DNA from: a virus
Length of the DNA stretch: 64,000 nucleotides
IMG/VR virus record: IMGVR_UViG_3300042558_003617
Location: 1 to 64,000 of that record
Direction: 5' to 3' (one strand)
The position numbers and the translations under genes are program-made. Positions 47,674-58,694 of this stretch are shown here, in pieces. How positions within the stretch are numbered: position 1 is the stretch's first letter; every line of letters starts with the position of its first letter. Under the pieces are notes generated by a model. That model saw nothing but the letters and a program-made list of their open reading frames with translations, ran no database searches and was not told the DNA's origin.

Positions 47674-47748
47674 TGGTAGTGATAAGTGGGAATGATCCAC
47701 TCTCCTCGCCTTATGAGGGCGGTACGCATCCATCTACGTCATATCACC
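47674..47748 (-). tRNA. tRNA with CAT anticodon (Met or Ile2), A54/U58 T-loop
   Basis: Cloverleaf, CCA; T-loop ATCATTC. Confidence 0.8.
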
Positions 47749-47847: not shown

Positions 47848-47925
47848 TGGTAGGGGCACAGGGATTCGAACCCTGACCTGGCAGATTAAAAGTCTGCTGT
47901 GCTAAACCGTTAACACTATACCCCC
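47848..47925 (-). tRNA. tRNA-Lys(TTT)
   Basis: Cloverleaf, CCA. Confidence 0.9.
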
Positions 47926-49180: not shown

Positions 49181-50157
49181 TGATTGTTGCTGAACAAGTG
49201 ACCGGAGTTGTAGTAGAAGCTACATCGCATTGCAATTTGCATTGCCCACAGTGTCCTAGATACGATCAGGAAGGATTCTTAAACAAGTTTCTAGTGCCTG
49301 ACCATTTGGACTTTGAAGCATTTGAACAAAACTTTGTACTGTCTCAGTTGCCAAACCTCAAACACATTGTGTTTGAAGGCGACTACGGTGATATCATGAT
49401 GCATCCACGTGCCGAAAGCTTTTTTAGGCACTGCTCAAGTGTGGAGTCAATTGTTGCATACACCAACGGTAGCATGCGATCCACAACCTGGTGGGCAAAT
49501 CTTGCAACCATTCCCAACTTGACAGTTGTTTTTTCAATTGACGGATTAGCTGACACCAATGCAACATACAGAATCAATGCTGATTTTGATAAAATCATGC
49601 GCAACGCCCGGGCATACATCAATGCAGGCGGTCGTGCCACGTGGAAATTTCTTGTGTTCAAACACAATCAGCACCAAGTGGCGCAAGCACAAGAACTTGC
49701 CGCTAGCATGGGGTTTGCTGATTTTCAAACACAATCAACCAATAGAAACTTTTGGGATAATCCAATTTGGCCGGTAAAGATCAACGGTGAGTACTCACAC
49801 GATATTGAAATGAGTGACACAGCTGATTCTACTCGTACCAAGGATTATATTGTGGCGCTTGACAAAGTCAAACAACAACAATTTACCAAACCATCTTGTT
49901 CCTGGATCAACAGTGGTAGAATTTACATAAACCACAAAGGGCATGTGATTCCTTGTTGCATGACCAGTGGCTTGTCTTGGCAACGCGATATATCTGCACA
50001 GTTGTGGCAGCGCATTATACAGCATGTGGATTCAATTGATATCAATCAGCACAACATTGCTGACATATTAACAAGTGACTTCTTTGTGCATAATCTAGCA
50101 ACATCGCTGTCCAGCGCCAAGACAGTACATCCAACCTGTTTGTCTCAATGTTCATAA
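49180..50157 (+). CDS. Radical SAM enzyme with a C-terminal SPASM/twitch domain
   Basis: CNLHCPQC, 'TNGS', 'FSIDG', C...G.V.PCC...C...C. Confidence 0.88.
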   Translation: MIVAEQVTGVVVEATSHCNLHCPQCPRYDQEGFLNKFLVPDHLDFEAFEQNFVLSQLPNLKHIVFEGDYGDIMMHPRAESFFRHCSSVESIVAYTNGSMRSTTWWANLATIPNLTVVFSIDGLADTNATYRINADFDKIMRNARAYINAGGRATWKFLVFKHNQHQVAQAQELAASMGFADFQTQSTNRNFWDNPIWPVKINGEYSHDIEMSDTADSTRTKDYIVALDKVKQQQFTKPSCSWINSGRIYINHKGHVIPCCMTSGLSWQRDISAQLWQRIIQHVDSIDINQHNIADILTSDFFVHNLATSLSSAKTVHPTCLSQCS

Positions 50158-50232
50158 TGGCCCGGCGTAGAGGAATCGAACCCCTATAATGACTTTAGAA
50201 GAATCATGTCCTATCCGTTGAACGAACGCCGG
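50158..50232 (-). tRNA. tRNA-Arg(TCT)
   Basis: Cloverleaf, CCA. Confidence 0.88.
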
Positions 50233-50238
50233 AGTATT

Positions 50239-50314
50239 TGGTCTCCCTACAAGGATTCGAACCTTGACCACACGGCCCCAAACCGTGTACGCAACCAGAT
50301 AACGCTTTAGAGAG
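50239..50314 (-). tRNA. tRNA-Pro(TGG)
   Basis: Cloverleaf, CCA. Confidence 0.87.
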
Positions 50315-50321
50315 ATAAACT

Positions 50322-50396
50322 TGGTGGAGACCGTCGGTATCGAACCGATCTAGACACGAATCTTGCAAGGATCCGCCGTAGCCCTCTACTGCCCCC
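50322..50396 (-). tRNA. Atypical tRNA-Ala(TGC) with a minimal D-arm
   Basis: G3.U70, TGC anticodon loop, TTCGA T-loop, CCA; D-arm is only GTAG-AGGG-CTAC. Confidence 0.65.
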
Positions 50397-50479
50397 ATTA
50401 TAGAAACACACTTAAACAGTCCTTCAACGTTAGTCGCTATCTCCCTTACTATCGGGCGGATCTGTATGTGTTTCTATAA
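50397..50479 (-). ncRNA. Stem-enclosed RNA cassette
   Basis: TTATAGAAACACA/TGTGTTTCTATAA stem exactly filling the inter-tRNA gap. Confidence 0.55.
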
Positions 50480-50558
50480 TGGCTCCGCATCTGGGTAACG
50501 ATCCCAGCTAATCATTGATTAACAGTCAAGCCCATGCACCATGCTCGGGTTCTGCGGA
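50480..50558 (-). tRNA. tRNA-Asn(GTT), A54/U58 T-loop, atypical D-arm
   Basis: Cloverleaf, CCA. Confidence 0.8.
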
Positions 50559-50567
50559 ATAAAATTT

Positions 50568-50657
50568 TGGCGGAACGACTCGGACTCGAACCGAGAACCC
50601 GGATTACGCCGAGCGACAGATTAGCAATCTGCTCTAATACCATTATAGGACCGTTCC
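50568..50657 (-). tRNA. tRNA-Ser(GCT)
   Basis: Long variable arm, G73, CCA. Confidence 0.9.
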
Positions 50658-50670
50658 AAAACTTACAAAA

Positions 50671-50745
50671 TGGCTGGCCTTGAGAGGATCGAACTCCCAC
50701 CCCTTGTTTCGAAGACAAGGATGATATCCATTTCACCAAAGGCCA
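50671..50745 (-). tRNA. tRNA-Arg(TCG)
   Basis: Cloverleaf, CCA. Confidence 0.88.
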
Positions 50746-50750
50746 AAAAC

Positions 50751-50824
50751 TGGTGCTCTCACCAGGTAACGATCCTGGGTTGCTACATTACCAATGTAGT
50801 GTAATGCCTTTATACTATGAGAGC
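50751..50824 (-). tRNA. tRNA-Thr(GGT), A54/U58 T-loop
   Basis: Cloverleaf, CCA. Confidence 0.87.
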
Positions 50825-50832
50825 AATAAAAC

Positions 50833-50906
50833 TGGTGCGGGGTAAGAGAATCGAACTCTTGCTTAAACGTTGGCAACGTCTGGTTCTACCATTAAACTAA
50901 CCACGC
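50833..50906 (-). tRNA. tRNA-Gly(GCC)
   Basis: Cloverleaf, CCA. Confidence 0.88.
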
Positions 50907-50930
50907 ATTTGCTATTTGCAAATAGCAAAT
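50907..50930. repeat. Perfect 24-bp palindrome
   Basis: ATTTGCTATTTG|CAAATAGCAAAT. Confidence 0.9.
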
Positions 50931-50935
50931 AAAAT

Positions 50936-51011
50936 TGGCTCCACAGCCTGGGCTCGAACCAGGGACCAAAAGATTAACAGTCTTCTACTCTACCAACTGA
51001 GCTACTGCGGA
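50936..51011 (-). tRNA. tRNA-Asn(GTT)
   Basis: Canonical cloverleaf, CCA. Confidence 0.92.
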
Positions 51012-51020
51012 ATAAAAATT

Positions 51021-51097
51021 TGGAGTAGGTGACAAGGATCGAACTTGCATAAAACGGATTTGCAATCCGCGGCCTAACCATTCAGCGACACACCTAC
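51021..51097 (-). tRNA. tRNA-Cys(GCA)
   Basis: Cloverleaf, U73, CCA. Confidence 0.87.
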
Positions 51098-51099
51098 AT

Positions 51100-51320
51100 A
51101 TTGCTCTGCATCCCCCGGCGGTAATTGTAGTACATCAGAAATTTGGTCAGCAAGTTTTCACTCACCAATTAGTTTTTCATCACACGTACCTTCCACCCGC
51201 TTCCCGACAGGGACCGTTATCGCATTGCTAGCGGCCTTTGGGTTCGAAGACTACCACCCGTACTTGTCACAGTACTTCTCATCGTGTGGGTCACACTATC
51301 CGGAGACACCCGGAACGTTC
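51100..51320 (-). ncRNA. Candidate ~220-nt structured RNA
   Basis: GC-richer gap between tRNA-Tyr and tRNA-Cys with several hairpins and no credible ORF. Confidence 0.5.
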
Positions 51321-51409
51321 TGGTGGAGATGATAGGATTCGAACCTATTGCGTTTCTTAAGTACCGGATTTACAGTCCGGGGCCACTCCACCATCGTAGC
51401 CGCATCTCC
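51321..51409 (-). tRNA. tRNA-Tyr(GTA)
   Basis: Long variable region, CCA. Confidence 0.87.
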
Positions 51410-51413
51410 AAAG

Positions 51414-51488
51414 TGGTACTGGGTACGGGAATCGAACCCGTCTTACAAACGTGAAAGGCTTGTGTCCTAACCGATAGACGAACCCAGC
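51414..51488 (-). tRNA. tRNA-Glu(TTC)
   Basis: Cloverleaf, CCA. Confidence 0.9.
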
Positions 51489-51616
51489 GTAAAGAAAAAC
51501 CCTGAAGTAGTCCAGTCAAGCAACCAAACAGGGCCGTGTTAAAAAGAGAAACTGCTGTTGCAGGACCTAGTGCCTCAATGAGGGAAGTATCCAGGCGATG
51601 CAGTTTCAAAAATGAA

Positions 51617-51826
51617 TTTGAGAGTAGTGCCACCCTGTTATAGGCACCATTCACCCGATTTAACAAGTCCGGACGGGGTTCGGTACGTCACTTGGGATTC
51701 ATCCAGCGTGGTAACCATGCTACACCGATCTTCCGATCAGCCGGGAGTCGAACCCGCTTGCCTTCTATTACTCAGTACCTTCGAAGAATACTGCATAACG
51801 TGACTTCACTTGCTGACACTCTCAAA
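51617..51826 (-). ncRNA. Candidate ~210-nt multi-branched RNA with an internal T-arm
   Basis: TTTGAGAGT/ACTCTCAAA closing stem; CGGG-TTCGACT-CCCG; several hairpins. Confidence 0.55.
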
Positions 51827-51829
51827 ACT

Positions 51830-51905
51830 TGGCGGTCTTAGGGGGTAACGATCCCCACTCTTACGGCGTGACAAGCCGTCGTGCGTCCATGAACACTTTA
51901 AGACC
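51830..51905 (-). tRNA. tRNA-Asp(GTC), A54/U58 T-loop
   Basis: Cloverleaf, G73, CCA. Confidence 0.87.
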
Positions 51906-51907
51906 AA

Positions 51908-52125
51908 CTATATTAAAAAATACTAAAGGAACCATTGTGCATCTATGTCTACCTATACGACCGTCTCGTATAGGCCTGCACGGTCATTACTGCCTACATG
52001 CTCCGCCGCTTTTCTGAGCATTACTGCTCGGCTTCATGAACTCTGACTATTGAGCGTGGGCGGCCCCACTGTCCTCGCACAAAGTTCCTAACGGTGTAGG
52101 TAACCTTTAATACATTTTAATATAG
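51908..52125 (-). ncRNA. Candidate ~218-nt multi-branched RNA
   Basis: ~20-bp interrupted closing stem CTATATTAAAA..TATTAAAGG/CCTTTAGTA..TTTTAATATAG; CCTATACGA/TCGTATAGG hairpin. Confidence 0.55.
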
Positions 52126-52158
52126 CAACCCTTGCGGGTTACTACAAGAAAACTCGAC

Positions 52159-52322
52159 TTTTTAAAGAACATCTAGTTAATTTCTAACTAGTCTCTAGTA
52201 TAACACGATGTGCAATACCAGTCAATCTGTTTTGCAAAGTCCCTACAACTTCTAGGGTTTTTGCAACATCAGTTAATTTCTTAACTTGTTTCTATTGTAG
52301 CAAAAATACGTTTACCGGTCAA
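52159..52322 (-). promoter_or_regulatory. Tandem sigma70 promoters followed by a hairpin and a boxA-like element
   Basis: TTGACC-17-TACAAT (52322-52294); TTGACT-17-TATACT (52225-52197); CTAGTTA-GAAAT-TAACTAG; TGTTCTTTAAAAA. Confidence 0.7.
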
Positions 52323-52378
52323 GTGAATTTTTGTTGTATTTTCACAACACTACCGGGGCCGCCCCTATAAGTATAGGC

Positions 52379-53266
52379 ATGACCAATCAAATACAACTTT
52401 CGACCAAGCACGGTCAGGTCCTGGTCGAACTACTTGACACTGAGTTTGTTCACTTCTGGAAAACTCATTATGATCAAATGGTTGATTGTTACAGCCTAAC
52501 ACCTAGACACGTGCCCTGGCCCAATTATCAGCCCTGCAGCCACGAAACTGTTGACACACTAATTGATCGCATTTTGAACGTGATCAAAACAATTAACTCC
52601 AGCAGTTACCTATGCCCGTTACCGGAAATTGTAACCAAAGATCAATTGAGTAGATTGGATTTGAGCACACAACAATTGCTCAATCGATTACACAGATATG
52701 CAGTAGTAGCTACAGAATTTGGAAATCGATGGCATCACAACGGGCAGGAAGAATTTAACCCTGTACCCTATACCAACGATGAATTCATGTACAACATCAA
52801 TGTGTTAAATCAAAGCATTCATTACCTTGAAGAATATGTAATAACACCACACAAACAAGAATTCTTGCGACAAGTACAAACAGTAGAGTTTGTTTTTGAG
52901 TCATCTAAATACCAAGATGTTGACGTTTTTCTAGATGGATCAGCTGTTGCAATCCCTGACGAAATGCAACAGCATCTCAGATTGTCGGGGTATGATGTGT
53001 GGATCAAAAAAGATCTACTGGGAAAAGACTTTATAACTGCATTTGCAGATCATGATGACCCTGCACAATTTGACATACGTCCACCGCCTACAATCAGTGG
53101 CGGTATCGCAATTGATCTTGACCAAGGTAGGGACAACCTATTTGACAGTCCTTTATTTGCTGCCTGGCTCGGACAATCTCCCAATGATACACATGGTAGC
53201 TATCCATTGGGCAAAGTCATTTCTGGTAAAGAAAACTTATTAAAATTCAGCAGACGTTTCTGGTAG
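52379..53266 (+). CDS. Hypothetical protein (distant paralogue of 22663..23751)
   Basis: TAAGTA 5 nt upstream; LNRLHRY, LNQSIHYLE, LGKDF..AF.D. Confidence 0.7.
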   Translation: MTNQIQLSTKHGQVLVELLDTEFVHFWKTHYDQMVDCYSLTPRHVPWPNYQPCSHETVDTLIDRILNVIKTINSSSYLCPLPEIVTKDQLSRLDLSTQQLLNRLHRYAVVATEFGNRWHHNGQEEFNPVPYTNDEFMYNINVLNQSIHYLEEYVITPHKQEFLRQVQTVEFVFESSKYQDVDVFLDGSAVAIPDEMQQHLRLSGYDVWIKKDLLGKDFITAFADHDDPAQFDIRPPPTISGGIAIDLDQGRDNLFDSPLFAAWLGQSPNDTHGSYPLGKVISGKENLLKFSRRFW

Positions 53267-53334
53267 CTCCACCGGGTAACGATCCCAGGACTGCCGGTTA
53301 TCAGCCGACTGTTATTCCATTTAACTACAGAGCT
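53261..53334 (-). tRNA. tRNA-Ile(GAT), A54/U58 T-loop
   Basis: Cloverleaf, CCA. Confidence 0.87.
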
Positions 53335-53342
53335 ATTCAATT

Positions 53343-53416
53343 TGGCACGGGTACTAGGGCTCGAACCTAGAATGACAGAGTCAAAGTCTGTAGTGTTACC
53401 ATTACACTATACCCGA
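53343..53416 (-). tRNA. tRNA-Gln(TTG)
   Basis: Cloverleaf, CCA. Confidence 0.9.
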
Positions 53417-53423
53417 ACAATCT

Positions 53424-53515
53424 TGGCGGAAAGCAGAGGAGTCGAACCCCATCCCATTTCTGAGAACCTGGTTTTCAAGGCCAGTCGCAGGACCATCCCC
53501 GCTGCATTACTTTCC
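53424..53515 (-). tRNA. tRNA-Ser(TGA), enlarged D-arm
   Basis: Long variable arm, G73, CCA. Confidence 0.83.
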
Positions 53516-53524
53516 ATTAACTAT

Positions 53525-53599
53525 TGGTGCCCCAGGATGGAATCGAACCACCACACCCTGCTTACAAAACAGGACCTCTACCACTAAGGATACAAGGGC
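53525..53599 (-). tRNA. tRNA-Thr(TGT)
   Basis: Cloverleaf, CCA. Confidence 0.88.
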
Positions 53600-53605
53600 A
53601 AAAAT

Positions 53606-53679
53606 TGGCGTACCCACTAGGACTCGAACCTAGACTGACGGTTTTGGAGACCGCGATGCTGCCATTACACTATGGATAC
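53606..53679 (-). tRNA. tRNA-Trp(CCA)
   Basis: Cloverleaf, CCA. Confidence 0.9.
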
Positions 53680-53688
53680 ATTAACATA

Positions 53689-53763
53689 TGGTGGACCGTA
53701 ACGGGATCGAACCGTTCCTTAAGGCTTGCAAAGCCCTCGTGCCCCCAACAACACTTACAGCCC
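53689..53763 (-). tRNA. tRNA-Ala(TGC)
   Basis: G3.U70, cloverleaf, CCA. Confidence 0.87.
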
Positions 53764-53764
53764 A

Positions 53765-53829
53765 TACATTCTAAAACACACCATCTGCGGTATTGCAACC
53801 CAGATCAGCTTGGTGTATTTTAGAATGTA
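53765..53829 (-). ncRNA. Stem-enclosed RNA cassette
   Basis: 19-bp stem TACATTCTAAAATACACCA/TGGTGTGTTTTAGAATGTA abutting the tRNA-Ala 5' end. Confidence 0.5.
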
Positions 53830-53979
53830 GTGTGTTTCCACACCACATGATAGGGTCAATACCCTACCCAGGAGTCTTACTGTCTGTGTTACCGCCACAG
53901 AGTTCATGTGTCCTGTCCGCCCGTTTGCTTGTTTTTTTGAGTGCTTTAGCGGGACCTCGTTTCCCAATAGCACTAAGTG

Positions 53980-54012
53980 AAAAACCCTGGAGTTTTTAAT
54001 TCCAGGGTCTTT
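53980..54012 (-). terminator. Intrinsic terminator (putative attenuator) upstream of the tRNA array
   Basis: AAAGACCCTGGA-loop-TCCAGGGTTTTT. Confidence 0.75.
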
Positions 54013-54034
54013 GAATTTGTAGATGTTAACTTAG

Positions 54035-54166
54035 TTAATCATCCCATCCTTCAATAGACCCCGGTACTCCTGGAATACTATTCACATGATCATAGCCGCG
54101 TGACCAGGCTGTTGTCGCCTGTGTCAACATGGGTTTGGATCTTGTTAAAGTATTTGTTTTCATCAT
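54035..54166 (-). CDS. Putative 43-aa leader peptide (not in ORF track)
   Basis: MMKTNTLTRSKPMLTQATTAWSRGYDHVNSIPGVPGSIEGWDD*; starts at the predicted +1 of the promoter. Confidence 0.5.
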   Translation of the reverse strand: MMKTNTLTRSKPMLTQATTAWSRGYDHVNSIPGVPGSIEGWDD

Positions 54167-54172
54167 GTACCT

Positions 54173-54280
54173 ATTATAGTTTATTTATGATTGCCTGTCA
54201 ACCACTAAATTTATGTTTTATTTAGTCCAGTTGATTGGTATTCATTCAAGTATTATACAACAAAAAGCTTTCTTGGTCAA
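54173..54280 (-). promoter_or_regulatory. Tandem sigma70 promoters heading the tRNA array
   Basis: TTGACC-17-TATAAT (54280-54252) and TTGACA-17-TATAAT (54201-54173). Confidence 0.85.
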
Positions 54281-54337
54281 GGGGGTATTTTGCCAGAATC
54301 ATGTAAATACAACAACACAACATAGAAATGGAAACAC

Positions 54338-54613
54338 ATGGACTTTTTAAAAATTGTTGCCGAGCTTGGCTTTCCTATTGCGGCTGCATGCGGTGCAGGC
54401 TACTTTGTGTTCCTGACCTTGAAGTTTATTCTTGCAGGCGTGACTAGCAGTGTGAATGGCATGGGCGGAATCATCAAGGGACTGGACAGCAGAGTTGATA
54501 CCATGACCAACCAATTGCAACGTATCGACGTCAAGGTTAGTCATGCACTGGGGCTACAGCCTGACTATGATCGCATAAGCAGAGCAGAGCAAATAGATCA
54601 AAGGAAAGATTAA
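54338..54613 (+). CDS. Small membrane protein, YvrJ/holin-like
   Basis: 'LGFPIAA' N-terminal TM segment followed by a coiled coil. Confidence 0.55.
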   Translation: MDFLKIVAELGFPIAAACGAGYFVFLTLKFILAGVTSSVNGMGGIIKGLDSRVDTMTNQLQRIDVKVSHALGLQPDYDRISRAEQIDQRKD

Positions 54614-54795
54614 TGAAATACCACGACTACGACCTAGATCTTTCCAAAGAAAAAATTGTACTTGATCGAGAAATAACACTTAAAAAACTTGAGTGGCACA
54701 AGGGTGACTACTTTGAAGTCACGGAGCATGATGGTCAAATTGAATTGGTCAGGGTTGATCCATTGGTAAAATTTATAAAAGGTTACGAATTGTGA
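54613..54795 (+). CDS. Small protein, possibly AbrB/SpoVT-like
   Basis: 'LKKLEWHKGDYFEV...DGQIEL'; TAATG coupling. Confidence 0.45.
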   Translation: MKYHDYDLDLSKEKIVLDREITLKKLEWHKGDYFEVTEHDGQIELVRVDPLVKFIKGYEL

Positions 54796-54831
54796 ATTTC
54801 ATGAGTGTTCAACCAGTAGGTAAATATTACT

Positions 54832-55188
54832 ATGAATTTAGCAGAATTAATTAACAAATATGGATTCCCTATTATCAGCGCAGCTGGCATGGGATATTTC
54901 ATTTACTATGTGTGGACCTGGGTAACCACTGAGATCAAGCCAGTTATAGGACAAGCCAATGGAACTCTTATTGCTCTTATTGATCGTATTCGTATGCTGG
55001 ACAACGACCTTATAAGGTTGAATCAAAAAGTAGAAACAGTTATGGAACTGCGCGGCAAAACCATTGAACAAGAGCGCATTGAAGCTGATAAAGAGATCAA
55101 CACTCGGCGCAAAAAAGTAGTAGAAGAAGAGAATTCAGCCAACAAAAGAAAAATTGCACCCAAGGAAGCCACAGGTAATGACCAATGA
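54832..55188 (+). CDS. Small membrane protein, YvrJ/holin-like (paralogue of 54338)
   Basis: 'YGFPIISAAGMGYF' versus 'LGFPIAAACGAGYF'; 'L.DR...L.R...KV'. Confidence 0.55.
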   Translation: MNLAELINKYGFPIISAAGMGYFIYYVWTWVTTEIKPVIGQANGTLIALIDRIRMLDNDLIRLNQKVETVMELRGKTIEQERIEADKEINTRRKKVVEEENSANKRKIAPKEATGNDQ

Positions 55189-55892
55189 TCGAAGTCATAT
55201 ACACACTGATTACAACTCACATTACTATCTTAAGTGTTACTTTATTTTTGCACAGAGGCCAAGCACACAGAGGGATTGTGTTTCACCCTGTACTAGAACA
55301 TTTTATGCGAGCCTGGCTATGGCTCACCACAGGCATGGTCACCAAGCAATGGGTTGCCATTCATCGTAAACATCATAGATTTACCGAACAACCGGGTGAT
55401 CCACATAGCCCGCATGTGTACGGCATTAGCCGGGTGTTTTTTCGAGGAGCAGGGTTGTACCACCAAGCCAGCAAAGACACAGACATGGTCAACACTTATG
55501 GGCCAGGCACCCCAGATGATTGGGTAGAACGAAATGTATATTCCAAGCACAGTCGCTTGGGAATTGCTTTGTTATTGGGTGTAAATTTACTTTGCTTTTC
55601 CTGGTGGGGATTATTGATCTGGGTGATACAGATGTTATGGATTCCTTTTTGGGCAGCTGGGTTTATCAATGGAATTGGCCACTGGGCCGGCTATCGGAAT
55701 AGCAACACCAAGGACCGCAGTTATAACATTGTGCCCTGGGGAATCATTGTTGGTGGTGAGGAATTGCACAATAATCACCACCATGCGCCAGCAAATCCAA
55801 AACTAAGTCAACGATGGTTTGAATTTGACCTAGGTTGGGCTTGGTTCAAGATATTTGAAAAATTGAAATTAGCAAACGTTAGAATTGCCTAG
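55185..55892 (+). CDS. Membrane fatty acid (delta-9-type) desaturase
   Basis: Three His boxes: HRGQAH, HRKHH, HNNHH. Confidence 0.93.
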   Translation: MIEVIYTLITTHITILSVTLFLHRGQAHRGIVFHPVLEHFMRAWLWLTTGMVTKQWVAIHRKHHRFTEQPGDPHSPHVYGISRVFFRGAGLYHQASKDTDMVNTYGPGTPDDWVERNVYSKHSRLGIALLLGVNLLCFSWWGLLIWVIQMLWIPFWAAGFINGIGHWAGYRNSNTKDRSYNIVPWGIIVGGEELHNNHHHAPANPKLSQRWFEFDLGWAWFKIFEKLKLANVRIA

Positions 55893-56580
55893 CAATAGAT
55901 TCAGCTTCAGGAATGCGTGTATGTGTGTTCTTGCTGCCCAGTAATACCACAATTCGTCGACCAACATTGGTATCCAGCATCATGACAATGCATCCGCCGC
56001 TGGCACGGATGTAACCAGTTTTACTCACTAAGAAATTGTATTTGTCAACAATTGGGTTGGTGTTATTGATCACTACCCACTTTGCACGAGTGTGAATTTT
56101 AGTTTGCCTGATGTTGCTAGCATTGATGATTTCTTGGTAGCGAGATGATTCTATTACCATCTTTACCAGGTCAGATGCAGTGCTAATATTCATTATGTTA
56201 AGGCCAGTGGAGTCAATGAATCTAGTGCTGGTCATACCAAGTTGTTGAGCTTTGCGATTCATTTCCTTAACACAAGAATTGCGAAAACCATCATAGTTAT
56301 CACACAGTACCTGCGTTGCTTGATTGTCACTTTTTATTAATGCCAGTTTGATCAGTGCTCGACGAGTGTATGTTCCCAGCAGTTCATCAAGATCTTGTTG
56401 CTTGTCCAAAATCACCATGACTGTCATCAGTTTGGTGATGCTAGCAATACTGCGAGATTCTTGACTGTTGTTGCTGTGAAGTACGTGGCCATCACTATCT
56501 GCTACCAACCAACTTTTGGCAGTCATTGCAAAGGCTGCGGGACAGGCCAGCATGGCAATAGTGAGTAAAAATTTAATCAT
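55879..56580 (-). CDS. D-alanyl-D-alanine peptidase (S11, PBP7-like), secreted
   Basis: Signal peptide; SITK (SxxK), SDN (SxN), KTG. Confidence 0.92.
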   Translation of the reverse strand: MIKFLLTIAMLACPAAFAMTAKSWLVADSDGHVLHSNNSQESRSIASITKLMTVMVILDKQQDLDELLGTYTRRALIKLALIKSDNQATQVLCDNYDGFRNSCVKEMNRKAQQLGMTSTRFIDSTGLNIMNISTASDLVKMVIESSRYQEIINASNIRQTKIHTRAKWVVINNTNPIVDKYNFLVSKTGYIRASGGCIVMMLDTNVGRRIVVLLGSKNTHTRIPEAESIARQF

Positions 56581-56639
56581 CAAATTGATTATAACTGAAC
56601 TGTTGCCAGCATACACTGATATTGAACAAACTCAGAGTC

Positions 56640-58694
56640 TTACTTGCTTGTGGCTCTAAACACACCGTCCCAATCGCCGGGCAAGTTGGCCACACGCATT
56701 TCTGCAATACGTTCAACCCATAATTCGTAGTAATGGGTCATTTTTCCGTCAAATTCATCCTTGATGGTTTCAATCAAGGCAAGAGTCTTGTCCCACTGCT
56801 GTTTACGATAGTATTCTAACATCAAGTCGTGAATCTCTTTGGCATGATTCCATTTGGACATTTCCTCAGCGGTGGGATTGTAGAACACTGTGTATATGGT
56901 TACACCTTCTTTTTTGCCCTTGACTGCAATACAGTCTAGTTCAATTGTGAAATAATCAGTGCCCAATCGTTCAGCAGTGGCTGGGCCTAACACAATTAAA
57001 ACTCCGTAATTTTTACTTTGTCCTTCGAGCCTACTAGCCAAGTTAACAGCGTCTCCAAGGCAGGTGTAATCAAACCTTTGTTCGCCGCCCATGTTGCCAA
57101 CCACAACAACCCCAGTATTACAACCGATCCCAAGACCAAAAGGAGGCACGCCTTCTTCAGCAATTTCATCATTAAATATTTTAACGGCATCCAACATCTC
57201 CAGTGCAGCCTTAACAGAATCTTTCGCATGTTTAGTATTATCTAACGGTGCGTTCCAAAATGACATTGTAGCATCACCGATGTATTTGTCAAGTGTGCCT
57301 TCGTTTTCAAGAATGACTTTGGTTACCACAGTCATATAACGATTCATGATTTTGGTTAGACCTTGTACATCTTTACCATAGTGTTCACTAATACTAGTAA
57401 AGCCACGCACATCGCTAAACTGAATTGTCAAGTCTTGTTCTGTTCCGCCTAGAACCAGTAAACTAGGATCCTTGACCAACTTGGCCACAAGATCTGGACT
57501 CAAGTAACTACCGAACTGTTTCTTGATCTGTTGCTTTTGCAAAAACTCACTCACAAACTTTACCATAAAGGCATGCAAAGCGACCAAGCCAATGCCAACT
57601 GCAAAGGCAGCACTATCGAATAAGAATAGGTAATGGCTATAAGCAAACATACTGCCAGCAATGACGCTGCCAATCGTAACCACAGTTGCCGCAATGCCCA
57701 CATAAGTCCACCTCATTAAAAAGATTAATAAAATGCCAGCCAATGCAATGCTGACTATTTCTAGCTCATCGGCGTATCCAGGACGTTGAATTGATGTGCC
57801 ACTCAACATTGTGCCTAACAAACTAGCCTGTAGTTCTTGTGGCCAAATTTCACCTCGACTGGTTGCAATTGGGTTTACAAGTCCTGCCGCACTCAGACCA
57901 ACAATGACAATTTCGCCATTGAAGTCCTTGGGCAAATCAGCCAGACTATGTTGTGAGGGACGCTGGCTCCAATCAATCCAAACACGGCTTAGCGGGTCCA
58001 CTGTGATTTTGTTTAGCTTGGGAACCCTAAGTGCCTCTACACCCATGTCTGTGATTTTAACTTGTATCTTTGTGTCGCCTGCTGCCAGCCTCAAAGTTTC
58101 CAATGCCAAACTAGGATGTATAGTGTCTTGGCTCATGATCAACAAAGGCATACGTCGAACAACGCCGTCAATCTCTGGGAATGTATTAACGACTCCAACA
58201 CCGGCTGCACGTTCTTCTAGCATGGGAACGTTGGCAATGATACCAGGATACTCTACCAACGTGCCGTGTGCATCTTGACCCACAACTTGAACAGCTGATC
58301 CAAATGTAGTGTTTTTACTTTTGGAACCAGCCACTTGAGGCAACACAGTGGCGTATTGTCCAAGAGCTTTGCTCAGTTGAACATCGCCACCAAATCTGTC
58401 AGACTCGGGCATGAGCACGTTAAACACAACCAATCCAGCATTGCGCTTGTAAAGATCTTCAATGATGGCAGCATAGGTTGTTCGCGGGAATGGAAATTGT
58501 CCATATTTGTCCAATGCCGCTTCGTCGATGTTTACTGTGTGTACTGGTATTTCTTTGGCAGGTTGGCTGGTAACCAATTGGTCAAAGTAGCGTAGTCTCA
58601 CGCTTTCAACAAATGTAGGATCCCAGGCACGTACCAGCATCACTATTAACAAGGTGAGCAAGGCAGTCCATGGGTTTAGTAATACTTTTTTCAT
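56640..58694 (-). CDS. CHASE2-domain membrane class III adenylate cyclase
   Basis: CHASE2 'DGVVRR.PL', TM helices, 'FSDVRGFT', 'DKYIGDA', 'GDAVNLASRLE'. Confidence 0.93.
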   Translation of the reverse strand: MKKVLLNPWTALLTLLIVMLVRAWDPTFVESVRLRYFDQLVTSQPAKEIPVHTVNIDEAALDKYGQFPFPRTTYAAIIEDLYKRNAGLVVFNVLMPESDRFGGDVQLSKALGQYATVLPQVAGSKSKNTTFGSAVQVVGQDAHGTLVEYPGIIANVPMLEERAAGVGVVNTFPEIDGVVRRMPLLIMSQDTIHPSLALETLRLAAGDTKIQVKITDMGVEALRVPKLNKITVDPLSRVWIDWSQRPSQHSLADLPKDFNGEIVIVGLSAAGLVNPIATSRGEIWPQELQASLLGTMLSGTSIQRPGYADELEIVSIALAGILLIFLMRWTYVGIAATVVTIGSVIAGSMFAYSHYLFLFDSAAFAVGIGLVALHAFMVKFVSEFLQKQQIKKQFGSYLSPDLVAKLVKDPSLLVLGGTEQDLTIQFSDVRGFTSISEHYGKDVQGLTKIMNRYMTVVTKVILENEGTLDKYIGDATMSFWNAPLDNTKHAKDSVKAALEMLDAVKIFNDEIAEEGVPPFGLGIGCNTGVVVVGNMGGEQRFDYTCLGDAVNLASRLEGQSKNYGVLIVLGPATAERLGTDYFTIELDCIAVKGKKEGVTIYTVFYNPTAEEMSKWNHAKEIHDLMLEYYRKQQWDKTLALIETIKDEFDGKMTHYYELWVERIAEMRVANLPGDWDGVFRATSK

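What the first reader, a model, noticed from the sequence alone, without database searches (positions are those of the whole stretch)
53975..54201. Leader-peptide attenuator apparently gating the phage tRNA array (possible sensor of host translation failure)
Seen in sequence (minus strand): a consensus promoter whose predicted +1 falls on the ATG of a 43-codon ORF, then an intrinsic terminator (AGACCCTGGA/TCCAGGGTTTTT), and only after it the ncRNA/tRNA array. The 3' part of the ORF contains CCGGGGUCU (54064-54056), which can pair over 9 bp with the terminator's 5' arm AGACCCUGG, giving a mutually exclusive antiterminator. Established: this is the geometry of ribosome-mediated attenuators such as trp, his and thr. 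Inference: complete translation masks the antiterminator and transcription stops, whereas upstream stalling (tRNA depletion or cleavage by host anticodon nucleases) lets the phage tRNAs be made. The peptide uses 18 of 20 amino acids and has six Thr codons (five ACA) in its first 19 codons; the phage encodes two tRNA-Thr(UGU). I know of no described attenuator controlling a phage tRNA array.
Basis: partly seen in the sequence, partly recalled or inferred. Interest (0 to 1): 0.85.

Follow-up and report, generated by a model that had tools for sequence, protein, structure and literature searches.

The report
Leader-peptide attenuator heading phage tRNA arrays
A short translated reading frame, a transcription stop signal and a competing RNA fold sit together in front of the transfer-RNA genes of a whole group of uncultured giant freshwater phages, and probably let the phage adjust tRNA production to how well translation is running.

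Summary

It is not a one-off. The same genome (a 72-kb piece of a roughly 380-kb phage) holds a second copy. Three terminator-stem searches of IMG/VR gave 79 distinct modules of promoter, short ORF and terminator.
- In 48 of 79 the ATG lies 5-10 nt after the -10 hexamer. Of the 25 with a long 5' leader, 13 carry a clear Shine-Dalgarno.
- Same-strand tRNA genes follow 29/32 and 30/33 modules, against 1/57 and 4/75 same-stem terminators without a promoter.
- The 3' end of the ORF pairs with the terminator's 5' arm much better than in these controls (-14.2 vs -8.9 and -16.5 vs -9.9 kcal/mol), and the pairing covaries.

A ribosome-dependent attenuator is the best reading (confidence about 0.6), and no experiment backs it yet.

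Thr enrichment is peculiar to this copy. Internal promoters limit gating to the first tRNA cluster. The nuclease-sensor idea is untested. A link between leader codons and the downstream tRNAs was seen but failed validation.

The parts
54252..54280 (-). Upstream tandem promoter, TTGACC-17-TATAAT (11 of 12). Transcripts from it would carry the leader ORF behind a 5' UTR of about 80 nt.
54173..54201 (-). Main promoter, TTGACA-17-TATAAT (12 of 12). Relatives share the spacer motif CATAAATAAAC.
54035..54166 (-). Leader ORF of 43 codons plus TAA. The ATG lies 6 nt after the -10 hexamer, so the mRNA is predicted to be leaderless. Homologous peptides carry the motif ..AWS(H/R)..(V)NSIPG.PGS.. in relatives.
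54105..54121 (-). Small hairpin inside the ORF: CAGGC (54121..54117) pairs with GCCUG (54109..54105). The conserved Trp codon lies at its 3' edge. It may act as a pause hairpin, which is inference.
   Evidence: 81% of cells paired in 14 type-A sequences, no covariation
54050..54064 (-). 5' strand of the antiterminator, inside the last 12 codons of the ORF: CCGGGGUCU (54064..54056) plus UUGAA (54054..54050).
54021..54044 (-). Apical mini-hairpin of the antiterminator. It holds the TAA stop codon (54037..54035).
   Evidence: a like hairpin is seen in the relatives' alignment
54001..54015 (-). Shared strand: UUCAA plus AGACCCUGGA. It is both the 3' strand of the antiterminator and the 5' arm of the terminator.
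53980..53991 (-). 3' arm of the terminator (UCCAGGG) and the U5 run. The 9-nt loop AUUAAAAAC lies at 54000..53992.
53764..53979 (-). Structured spacer that would be transcribed only by read-through. Its 5' part is conserved in relatives and it contains a long hairpin at 53765-53829. Function unknown.
53261..53763 (-). First tRNA cluster, the genes plausibly gated: Ala(UGC), Trp(CCA), Thr(UGU), a tRNA-like stretch at 53428-53515, Gln(UUG) and Ile(GAU). No consensus promoter lies between the terminator and this cluster.

Best explanation
The element is a ribosome-dependent (leader-peptide type) transcription attenuator at the head of a phage tRNA operon.

A strong sigma-70 promoter starts an RNA whose first bases are the ATG of a 43-codon ORF. 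The last dozen codons and the stop codon lie in the 5' half and the tip of a long hairpin. The 3' half of that hairpin is the 5' arm of an intrinsic terminator.

If no ribosome covers this stretch when RNA polymerase makes the terminator, the antiterminator forms first. The terminator hairpin then cannot form, and transcription runs on into the spacer and tRNA-Ala, Trp, Thr, Gln and Ile. If a ribosome has translated to the end of the ORF, it holds the 5' strand open. The terminator forms and a leader RNA of about 187 nt is released.

The output would therefore be inverse to how promptly the leader is translated, which gives a feedback from translation capacity to tRNA synthesis.

Shown by sequence and comparison: the parts, their conservation, the conserved reading frame, the mutually exclusive pairings, the covariation, and the link to tRNA genes.
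Inferred: that the ORF is translated, the direction of the switch, and what is sensed.
For: 1. The anatomy in the window is confirmed. The antiterminator fold is -63.5 kcal/mol against -57.3 with the terminator enforced.

2. It belongs to a family.
- A second copy lies in the same genome at 68377..68150.
- There are 40 distinct promoter-plus-terminator modules among 132 hits of the first stem pattern.
- There are 42 more with an ORF among 137 distinct hits of two other stem patterns.
- One heads the main array of 36 tRNAs in a complete 383-kb relative.

3. Signs of translation.
- The ATG lies 5-10 nt after the -10 hexamer in 48 of 79 modules.
- Of the 25 with more than 25 nt of leader, 13 have an AAGGA/AGGA-type Shine-Dalgarno at -4 kcal/mol or better.
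- Frame 0 is open for 30 codons or more in 28 of 32 modules, against 6 of 32 in frame +2.
- The stop codon ends 19-32 nt before the stem in 37 of the 38 first-set modules; the validation median is 27.
- Leaderless genes are real in this phage: a 181-aa phosphoesterase (phrog_547, E = 2e-49, match from residue 1) starts 6 nt after a -10 hexamer.

4. The antiterminator is conserved and specific.
- Best duplex of the 5' arm with the upstream 120 nt: -14.2 kcal/mol (n = 40) vs -8.9 (n = 68) for same-stem terminators without a promoter, P = 6e-11.
- This was replicated: -16.5 (n = 42) vs -9.9 (n = 95), P = 9e-14.
- Gain for the nascent RNA from pairing the arm upstream: -10.8 vs -3.0 kcal/mol, next to terminator hairpins of about -14.3.
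- In 33 of 38 modules the partner ends between 36 nt before and 6 nt after the stop codon.

5. Covariation.
- Flank pairs: 87 of 108 against 72.8 +/- 2.8 after permuting arms; 0 of 20000 permutations reach the observed value.
- The arm base after CCC pairs as C-G in 30, U-A in 25 and U.G in 11 of 71 distinct combinations, and is unpaired in 5.
- On 75 aligned sequences the covariation score is 0.165 vs 0.139 +/- 0.008, with 0 of 500 shuffles as high. 70.1% of cells are paired, against 45-58% when the partner is slid by one column.
- A synonymous site takes part: the Ser codon TCY covaries with the base 5' of GACCC, as CG in 6, UA in 5, UG in 1 and other in 2.

6. Switch logic in silico. The terminator is in the minimum-energy fold in 17 of 37 free leaders and in 33 of 37 with a ribosome footprint at the stop codon. 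With the footprint at codon 10 it is 18 of 37, and at mid-ORF 17 of 37.

7. Link to tRNA genes. Same-strand tRNAs lie within 1.2 kb downstream of 29 of 32 modules vs 1 of 57 controls, and of 30 of 33 vs 4 of 75. Fisher P is about 1e-18 in each.

8. The hairpin is a real terminator type. The same stems end ordinary genes, for example an identical 31-mer in L057.
Against: - There is no experiment. The transcription start, the translation and the termination efficiency are all predicted.
- No leader has runs or enrichment of any one codon, and composition is close to the proteome. A classical amino-acid-specific signal is therefore missing.
- At equilibrium the free RNA already shows the terminator in 17 of 37 leaders, including the genome's second copy. 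The switch then rests on an unshown kinetic advantage.
- In 5 of 38 modules the best partner lies 63-79 nt before the stop codon, or pairs more weakly than -10 kcal/mol.
- Within the 14 closest relatives alone, covariation does not beat shuffles (56 of 500 reach it).
- The terminator stems were the search keys. Their conservation and the 99.5% pairing are by construction, and alignment A2 dropped 2-3 modules with duplex energies weaker than -11 kcal/mol.
- The modules are related by descent, so the P values overstate independence.
- The peptide is under weak purifying selection (dN/dS about 0.5), and one Trp is kept in 72 of 79 leaders. The peptide itself could therefore matter.
- Internal promoters feed most of the array.
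- One metatranscriptome contig of a relative runs through the terminator (X6, record 32).
Confidence: 0.6

Rival explanations
1. An ordinary very early small-protein gene, a fast-evolving peptide of 30-50 aa with its own strong promoter and its own terminator. The tRNAs downstream would be made by constitutive leakage through a moderate U5 terminator. The pairing between the ORF end and the terminator arm would serve mRNA stability or translation of the peptide, not regulation.
For: - The ORF is conserved and probably translated.
- dN/dS is about 0.5, and the third codon position is somewhat more variable: 0.316 vs 0.231 and 0.258.
- A single Trp is kept in 72 of 79 peptides.
- There are no regulatory codon runs.
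- Small genes with promoter and terminator are common in phage early regions (general knowledge).
Against: - It gives no reason for a mutually exclusive pairing with the terminator's own 5' arm that covaries at synonymous sites and in the untranslated flank. That pairing is also absent upstream of the same stems elsewhere.
- It gives no reason for the near-exclusive position in front of tRNA genes.
- The peptides differ beyond recognition between subfamilies, while promoter, geometry and terminator stay.
- No Pfam or PHROG family matches.
Confidence: 0.2
2. A non-coding small RNA, or a structured 5' leader serving as a processing or stability element of the tRNA precursor. The open frame would be a by-product of RNA-level conservation.
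For: - The predicted structure is strong: z = -5.67 for the leader and -3.11 for the second copy.
- The conserved peptide motifs coincide with pairing segments such as CCUGG, UCCAGG and GGGUC.
- In one metatranscriptome, two short contigs of relatives (119 and 121 nt) begin exactly at the last U of the run, 53980 (X3). This is a weak hint of a discrete terminated RNA, and it fits an attenuator equally well.
Against: - The frame stays open from an ATG at the predicted start in 28 of 32 modules, and far less often in another frame.
- The stop codon keeps a narrow distance to the stem.
- Variants with a 5' UTR acquire a Shine-Dalgarno.
- No Rfam family reaches its threshold.
Confidence: 0.07
3. 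A nascent-peptide arrest element. The conserved Trp, with a conserved Pro about 11 residues later, would stall the ribosome in response to a small molecule. The stalled ribosome, not general translation rate, would then set the terminator/antiterminator choice.
For: - Trp is present in 72 of 79 leaders.
- Trp and Pro lie about 11 residues apart in the two largest subfamilies, AWS..NSIPG and YWS..DRTPE.
- The resemblance to a known arrest peptide of a catabolic operon is recalled, not tested.
Against: - Several subfamilies have no Pro after the Trp (for example L083, L150, L123), and the genome's own second copy has no Trp at all.
- The Trp codon also sits in a conserved RNA hairpin arm.
- No tool here can test arrest.
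Confidence: 0.05
4. Chance: a promoter-like site, a random ORF and a terminator that happen to lie together.
For: Promoter-like and terminator-like sites are not enriched as classes in 50000-57000. A 9-bp complement within 130 nt is not very rare by itself.
Against: The arrangement recurs in 79 distinct modules with conserved geometry, covariation and context.
Confidence: 0.01

Closest known systems
Leader-peptide attenuators of amino-acid biosynthetic operons in enterobacteria (trp, his, thr, leu, pheA, ilv)
   Same: A short ORF in the transcript leader, an intrinsic terminator before the regulated genes, and an antiterminator whose 5' strand lies in or next to the ORF's 3' end. The position of the ribosome would decide between two mutually exclusive hairpins. 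The size is similar: 43 codons and about 190 nt.
   Different: - There are no tandem or enriched regulatory codons.
- The regulated genes are tRNAs, in many relatives a small protein plus tRNAs, rather than biosynthetic enzymes.
- The leader ORF is mostly leaderless (48 of 79).
- No clear anti-antiterminator (a 1:2 hairpin) competes for the 5' strand, so the untranslated RNA should read through rather than super-attenuate.
- It is carried by a phage.
- There is no Rfam leader hit at threshold; His_leader scores 15.3 bits against a gathering score of 49.
pheST (pheM leader) attenuator and T-box riboswitches, known controls of translation-apparatus genes by tRNA status
   Same: The logic would be the same: supply of the translation apparatus is tuned through a terminator/antiterminator choice in a leader.
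   Different: These control aminoacyl-tRNA synthetase or related genes, not tRNA genes. A T-box binds uncharged tRNA directly and needs no ORF. No T-box match was found. The pheM comparison rests on recall.
pyrBI-type attenuation (coupling of the ribosome to RNA polymerase at a leader terminator)
   Same: A leader ORF of about 44 codons, and a terminator whose action depends on how closely the ribosome follows the polymerase.
   Different: In pyrBI the ORF runs through the terminator and the ribosome itself blocks the hairpin (recalled). Here the ORF stops 27 nt before the stem, and a separate antiterminator exists.
tRNA gene clusters of T4- and T5-like phages
   Same: Clusters of phage tRNA genes interspersed with small ORFs, promoters, terminators and stable small RNAs.
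   Different: I know of no attenuator described there. Four full-text searches listed none (listings and abstract starts only). No DNA similarity to any of 50,697 phage records was found.

Membership tests
Ribosome-mediated (leader-peptide) transcription attenuator, as a mechanistic class | A short ORF at the 5' end of the transcript, upstream of the regulated genes. | tested here: met
   The window has a 43-codon ORF. It is conserved as an open frame in 28 of 32 modules with an ATG near the start. In all, 79 modules have ORFs of 20-63 aa.
Ribosome-mediated (leader-peptide) transcription attenuator, as a mechanistic class | An intrinsic terminator between the leader ORF and the regulated genes. 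| tested here: met
   A 9-10-bp GC-rich stem plus a U5 run at 54010..53980. The same stems end ordinary genes elsewhere. Termination itself was not measured.
Ribosome-mediated (leader-peptide) transcription attenuator, as a mechanistic class | An antiterminator that excludes the terminator and overlaps the region a translating ribosome covers. | tested here: met
   33 of 38 near the stop codon; specificity against controls; covariation.
Ribosome-mediated (leader-peptide) transcription attenuator, as a mechanistic class | Read-through responds to translation of the leader. | not testable with these tools
   Only an equilibrium folding proxy is available: the terminator is in the minimum-energy fold in 17 of 37 free leaders and in 33 of 37 with a footprint at the stop codon.
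Amino-acid operon leaders (Rfam Trp_leader, His_leader, Thr_leader, Leu_leader and the like) | Runs or enrichment of codons for the regulated amino acid in the leader peptide. | tested here: not met
   The longest same-residue run is 2 in 31 of 37 peptides and 3 in 2 of 37. Composition is close to the proteome. Thr has a median of 2 in the first 19 codons.
Amino-acid operon leaders (Rfam Trp_leader, His_leader, Thr_leader, Leu_leader and the like) | A match to the family covariance model at its gathering score. | tested here: not met
   The best hits are His_leader at 15.3 bits (gathering 49) and the trpB motif at 21.4 bits (gathering 59).
T-box riboswitch | A match to the T-box model (specifier loop and T-box antiterminator bulge). 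| tested here: not met
   There is no T-box hit at E up to 10 in 53755-54215.
Leaderless mRNA | The start codon lies at, or within a few bases of, the transcription start. | tested here: inconclusive
   The ATG lies 6 nt after the -10 hexamer here, and 5-10 nt after it in 48 of 79 modules. A bona fide phosphoesterase gene has the same layout. The start sites themselves are predicted, not mapped.

The most novel reading that the evidence does not exclude
The leader would be a codon sensor for the very tRNAs it gates. The middle of each leader peptide would be written in the amino acids of the tRNA genes that follow its own terminator. Here that is TQATTAW..I before Ala, Trp, Thr, Gln and Ile. 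The genome's second copy has ..LYEFAFEY..F.. before Tyr, Glu and Phe. A shortage of exactly those charged tRNAs would then stall the ribosome upstream of the antiterminator and switch on their genes, giving a self-balancing tRNA supply in a virus.

Evidence for:
- In the first set, 259 of 1069 leader residues match the first four downstream tRNAs, against 210.5 +/- 10.0 after permutation. With one representative per peptide cluster the median P is 0.005.
- The same holds at codon-anticodon level, and the excess lies in the third and fourth fifths of the peptide.

Evidence against:
- In the independent second set it failed: 258 of 1492 vs 253.3 +/- 8.3, P = 0.31.
- The signal is confined to modules whose tRNAs start within 300 nt (n = 22, P < 1e-4). 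Validation members of that kind alone give n = 6 and P = 0.13.
- The idea arose from looking at the same data, and shared descent can mimic it.
Probability: 0.25. Interest if true: 0.9.

Novelty: new variant of a known kind. Interest (0 to 1): 0.8.

Why it matters
Phage tRNA arrays are usually treated as passively expressed cargo. A conserved switch in front of them would mean that giant phages regulate their own tRNA supply, by a mechanism so far tied to bacterial amino-acid operons.

It would differ from the classical cases in three ways: the leader ORF is leaderless, there are no regulatory codon runs, and tRNA genes are the output. That would extend leader-peptide attenuation from sensing one amino acid to sensing translation capacity as such.

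The family gives a ready comparative data set of 79 natural variants with three terminator stems. The element is compact at about 230 bp, runs on a host sigma-70 promoter, and can be tested in standard reporter and cell-free systems.

It also bears on how phages cope with depletion of host tRNAs, although that link is not shown here.

Tried and rejected
1. Relatives found through the divergent 91-aa neighbour gene (54338-54613): 54 loci. None keeps the leader DNA (blastn) or the peptide (tblastn, best E = 0.036). Their tRNA arrays lie elsewhere, 11 kb away in the complete relative. This route could not test conservation and was dropped.

2. The 311-aa ORF at 52331-53266 has no relatives in viral contigs.

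3. Phage records: no DNA match in near or distant mode. GroEL tblastn found only distant hits and no close cultured relative.

4. Rfam: nothing at gathering score.

5. Pfam and PHROGs give nothing for the leader peptide or for the small protein that follows type-B modules.

6. Thr/ACA sensor: rejected as a family trait.

7. Leader codons matched to downstream tRNAs: significant in the first set, not in the second. It is kept only as the novel case.

8. A 9-base resemblance in the leader to the antitermination box of ribosomal RNA operons (consensus recalled, seen by eye) is not conserved in alignment A1 and was rejected.

9. Sequencing runs:
- Only assembled contigs with small shares of the stretch were on offer.
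- Parts of the stretch without cover say nothing.
- Two 119-121-nt RNA-library contigs of relatives begin at 53980.
- One 252-nt contig runs through the terminator.
- This is a weak hint only, from one study each.

10. Pfam gave no hit for the leaderless 181-aa ORF. PHROGs did.

11. A strict promoter-plus-ATG pattern in five related records found two long leaderless genes and no module.

Supplementary files were not consulted. No paper was read beyond search listings and abstract starts.
Full report
**What is there**

On the minus strand the window carries, in this order:
- a perfect sigma-70 promoter at 54201..54173 (12 of 12);
- six bases, then an ATG at 54166;
- a 43-codon ORF ending with TAA at 54037..54035;
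- a hairpin, AGACCCUGGA (54010..54001) with UCCAGGGUUU (53991..53982), with a 9-nt loop and a U5 run ending at 53980;
- a 216-nt structured spacer (z = -5.29);
- tRNA-Ala, Trp, Thr, a tRNA-like stretch, Gln and Ile at 53763..53261.

A second promoter (11 of 12) lies upstream at 54280..54252.

It extends by five more pairs, 54054..54050 with 54015..54011, around a small hairpin that holds the stop codon. This is the minimum-energy fold of the leader at -63.5 kcal/mol (z = -5.67), against -57.3 when the terminator is enforced.

**Where it comes from**

The window is part of a 72,456-base IMG/VR virus record rated 21% complete. A relative of 383,411 bases is rated complete. No cultured phage matches the DNA. 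The region carries many near-consensus sigma-70 promoters on the minus strand, five of them inside the tRNA array. One promoter is followed after 6 nt by the ATG of a 181-aa phosphoesterase (phrog_547, E = 2e-49, aligned from residue 1). Leaderless genes are therefore real in this phage.

**First route to relatives failed**

The first route, through the conserved divergent 91-aa neighbour gene, found 54 loci. None kept the leader.

**The terminator as search key**

The way in was the terminator. Its exact 31-mer also ends an unrelated gene in another viral contig. A like stem occurs a second time in the same genome at 68185..68160. There it belongs to a paralogous module:
- a promoter with the same spacer motif;
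- an ATG 10 nt after the -10 hexamer;
- a 40-codon ORF;
- the terminator;
- an 87-aa gene with an ordinary Shine-Dalgarno, then tRNA-Tyr, Glu and Phe.

**First set of modules**

The stem pattern was searched in IMG/VR. It gave 132 hits, 43 of them with a consensus-like promoter within 300 nt upstream, 40 of these distinct.

**Second set of modules**

Two other stem versions had been seen in relatives. Searching them gave 137 further distinct hits, 42 with a promoter and an ORF of at least 20 codons. These served as a validation set.

**The ORF**

- In 48 of 79 modules the ATG lies 5-10 nt after the -10 hexamer.
- In 25 modules it lies more than 25 nt after it. Of these, 13 have an AAGGA/AGGA-type Shine-Dalgarno, and most of the rest have a weaker AGAGA.
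- From an ATG near the start, frame 0 stays open for 30 codons or more in 28 of 32 modules, frame +2 in 6 of 32.
- The stop codon ends 19-32 nt before the stem in 37 of the 38 first-set modules and at a median of 27 nt in the second set.
- The peptides fall into subfamilies that are barely alignable with each other.
- Within the window's own subfamily (14 sequences, motif AWS(H/R)..NSIPG.PGS) dN/dS is about 0.5, and the third codon position is only slightly freer.
- No leader has codon runs. Composition is near the proteome. Thr is not enriched, with a median of 2 against 6 in this copy. A Trp is present in 34 of 37 and 38 of 42 leaders.

**The alternative pairing**

- The best duplex between the terminator's 5' arm and the 120 nt upstream is -14.2 kcal/mol in modules (n = 40). 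It is -8.9 in same-stem terminators without a promoter (n = 68; P = 6e-11).
- In the second set the values are -16.5 (n = 42) and -9.9 (n = 95; P = 9e-14).
- Pairing the arm upstream stabilises the nascent RNA by 10.8 kcal/mol on average, against 3.0 in controls. The terminator hairpins are about -14.3, so the two folds are nearly balanced.
- In 33 of 38 modules the partner ends between 36 nt before and 6 nt after the stop codon.

**Covariation in the alternative pairing**

- The untranslated bases 5' of the arm's CCC vary (GA, GGA, GAA, GAG, CA, AAA, CGG), and the partner varies with them. Paired positions number 87 of 108, against 72.8 +/- 2.8 after permuting arms; 0 of 20000 permutations reach that.
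- Over 71 distinct combinations from three stem classes, the arm base after CCC pairs as C-G in 30, U-A in 25 and U.G in 11, and is unpaired in 5.
- On a MAFFT alignment of 75 modules, imperfect in about a dozen rows, the antiterminator core has 70.1% paired cells, against 45-58% with the partner slid by one column. Its covariation score is 0.165 against 0.139 +/- 0.008, which no shuffle of 500 reaches.
- In the 14 closest relatives alone the overall score is not significant (56 of 500). One pair there links a synonymous Ser position to the arm's flank: CG in 6, UA in 5, UG in 1, other in 2.
- The terminator helix itself is 99.5% paired, but its stems were the search keys.

**Context**

Same-strand tRNA genes start within 1.2 kb after 29 of 32 modules, against 1 of 57 promoter-less terminators. 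In the second set the figures are 30 of 33 against 4 of 75. The exceptions among the modules are mostly hits without a family-like ORF or pairing.

There are two layouts. In one, the module is followed by a conserved structured spacer and then tRNAs, as in the window. In the other, the module is followed by a 52-87-aa protein of unknown family with a normal Shine-Dalgarno, and then tRNAs. The complete relative has the second layout at the head of its array of 36 tRNAs.

**How it most likely works**

The geometry is that of a leader-peptide attenuator. The antiterminator's 5' strand lies in the last codons of the ORF, and its 3' strand is the terminator's 5' arm. The antiterminator is made before the terminator's 3' arm. 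An untranslated or late-translated leader should therefore read through, while a ribosome that has reached the end of the ORF should free the arm for the terminator.

A folding proxy agrees. The terminator is in the minimum-energy fold in 17 of 37 free leaders and in 33 of 37 with a footprint at the stop codon. With the footprint at codon 10 it is 18 of 37, and at mid-ORF 17 of 37.

No codon class is enriched, so the signal would be general: how soon ribosomes load on and finish a leaderless ORF. Translation, the direction of the switch and the signal are all inferred. The gate covers only the first tRNA cluster, because internal promoters serve the rest.

**A bolder idea, and its test**

By eye, the middle of several leaders spells the amino acids of the tRNAs just downstream. 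A permutation test supported this in the first set:
- 259 of 1069 residues matched, against 210.5 +/- 10.0;
- with one representative per cluster the median P was 0.005;
- the result held at codon-anticodon level;
- the excess lay in the third and fourth fifths of the peptide.

The second set did not support it (258 of 1492 against 253.3 +/- 8.3, P = 0.31). The signal sits in modules whose tRNAs follow within 300 nt (n = 22, P < 1e-4; cluster level n = 9, median P = 0.004). It is absent where a protein gene intervenes (n = 39, P = 0.14). The six validation modules of the direct kind give P = 0.13. I keep it as an open lead, not as a finding.

**Comparison with what is known**

The element works like the trp, his and thr leaders but is not a member of those families. 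A defining feature, regulatory codon runs, was tested and not met, and no Rfam leader model matches.

Four full-text searches listed no attenuator in front of phage tRNA genes. I saw listings and abstract starts only and read no paper:
- phage, tRNA, leader peptide, attenuation, terminator;
- tRNA array, bacteriophage, promoter, terminator;
- tRNA operon, leader peptide, attenuator;
- phage-encoded tRNA, transcription, terminator, regulation.

**Verdict**

The attenuator reading is supported by comparison (confidence 0.6), and its Thr-sensor and whole-array parts are not. It is a new variant of a known kind. Interest is 0.8.

Noticed in passing
own genome beyond the window: G000:C1 68377..68150, minus strand (locus L059 about 1500-1720): A second, paralogous promoter / 40-codon ORF / terminator module lies just after a GroEL-like gene. 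It is followed by an 87-aa gene and tRNA-Tyr, Glu, Phe and Leu. In its minimum-energy fold the terminator is formed.
   Followed up: yes
window 53764-53979, minus strand: The spacer between terminator and tRNA-Ala is strongly structured (-80.4 kcal/mol, z = -5.29) and has a hairpin of about 25 bp at 53765-53829. Its 5' part (hairpin AGUGC..GCACU, then CAAACGGGCGG) recurs in relatives and, in the complete relative, after the small protein gene. There is no Rfam hit and the function is unknown.
   Followed up: partly
window 53428-53515, 47851-47925 and 47677-47748, minus strand: Rfam models find tRNA-like stretches that ARAGORN did not call. One scores 34.7 bits on the tRNA-Sec model (below its gathering score of 47). 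The other two score 61.4 and 41.5 bits on the general tRNA model.
   Followed up: no
window 52322..52294 and 52225..52197, minus strand: Two tandem promoters are each followed by a nearly identical short hairpin (..AGTTA(A)GAAATTAACT..). They lie ahead of the next tRNA cluster and form a different, repeated promoter-proximal element.
   Followed up: no
own genome G000:C1 about 65272..64727, minus strand (L350:727-1272): A 181-aa phosphoesterase gene (phrog_547, E = 2e-49) starts 6 nt after a 12/12-type promoter. Two long ORFs in relatives (L205, L206) have the same layout. Leaderless mRNAs seem common in this phage group.
   Followed up: partly
L057:4521-4551: The window's terminator recurs as an identical 31-mer after an unrelated Ala/Gly-rich gene in another viral contig. 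In modules the 9-nt loop A(C/U)UAAA(A/C)AC is nearly invariant, while generic same-stem terminators have other loops.
   Followed up: partly
loci L083, L097, L150, L123, L062, L065, L068, L111, L107, L140, L158, L113 (coordinates) and L059:1218-1481: A conserved family of proteins of 52-87 aa (..LT.E...L(I/F).NK..RA..) lies between type-B modules and their tRNAs. It has normal Shine-Dalgarno sites and no Pfam or PHROG match.
   Followed up: partly
leader ORFs of the 79 modules; in the window the Trp codon lies at 54106..54104: One Trp codon sits mid-ORF in 72 of 79 leaders, far more often than composition predicts. In the two largest subfamilies a conserved Pro follows about 11 residues later.
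   Followed up: partly
window 52331-53266, plus strand: A 311-aa ORF runs antisense between two minus-strand tRNA clusters. It has no Pfam hit and no relative in viral contigs, so it may not be a gene.
   Followed up: partly
window 54338-54613 and 54832-55188, plus strand: The divergent neighbours are two paralogous small proteins of PHROG 18771 (unknown function). They are conserved at 55-96% identity in 54 related contigs even though the region upstream of them is not.
   Followed up: partly
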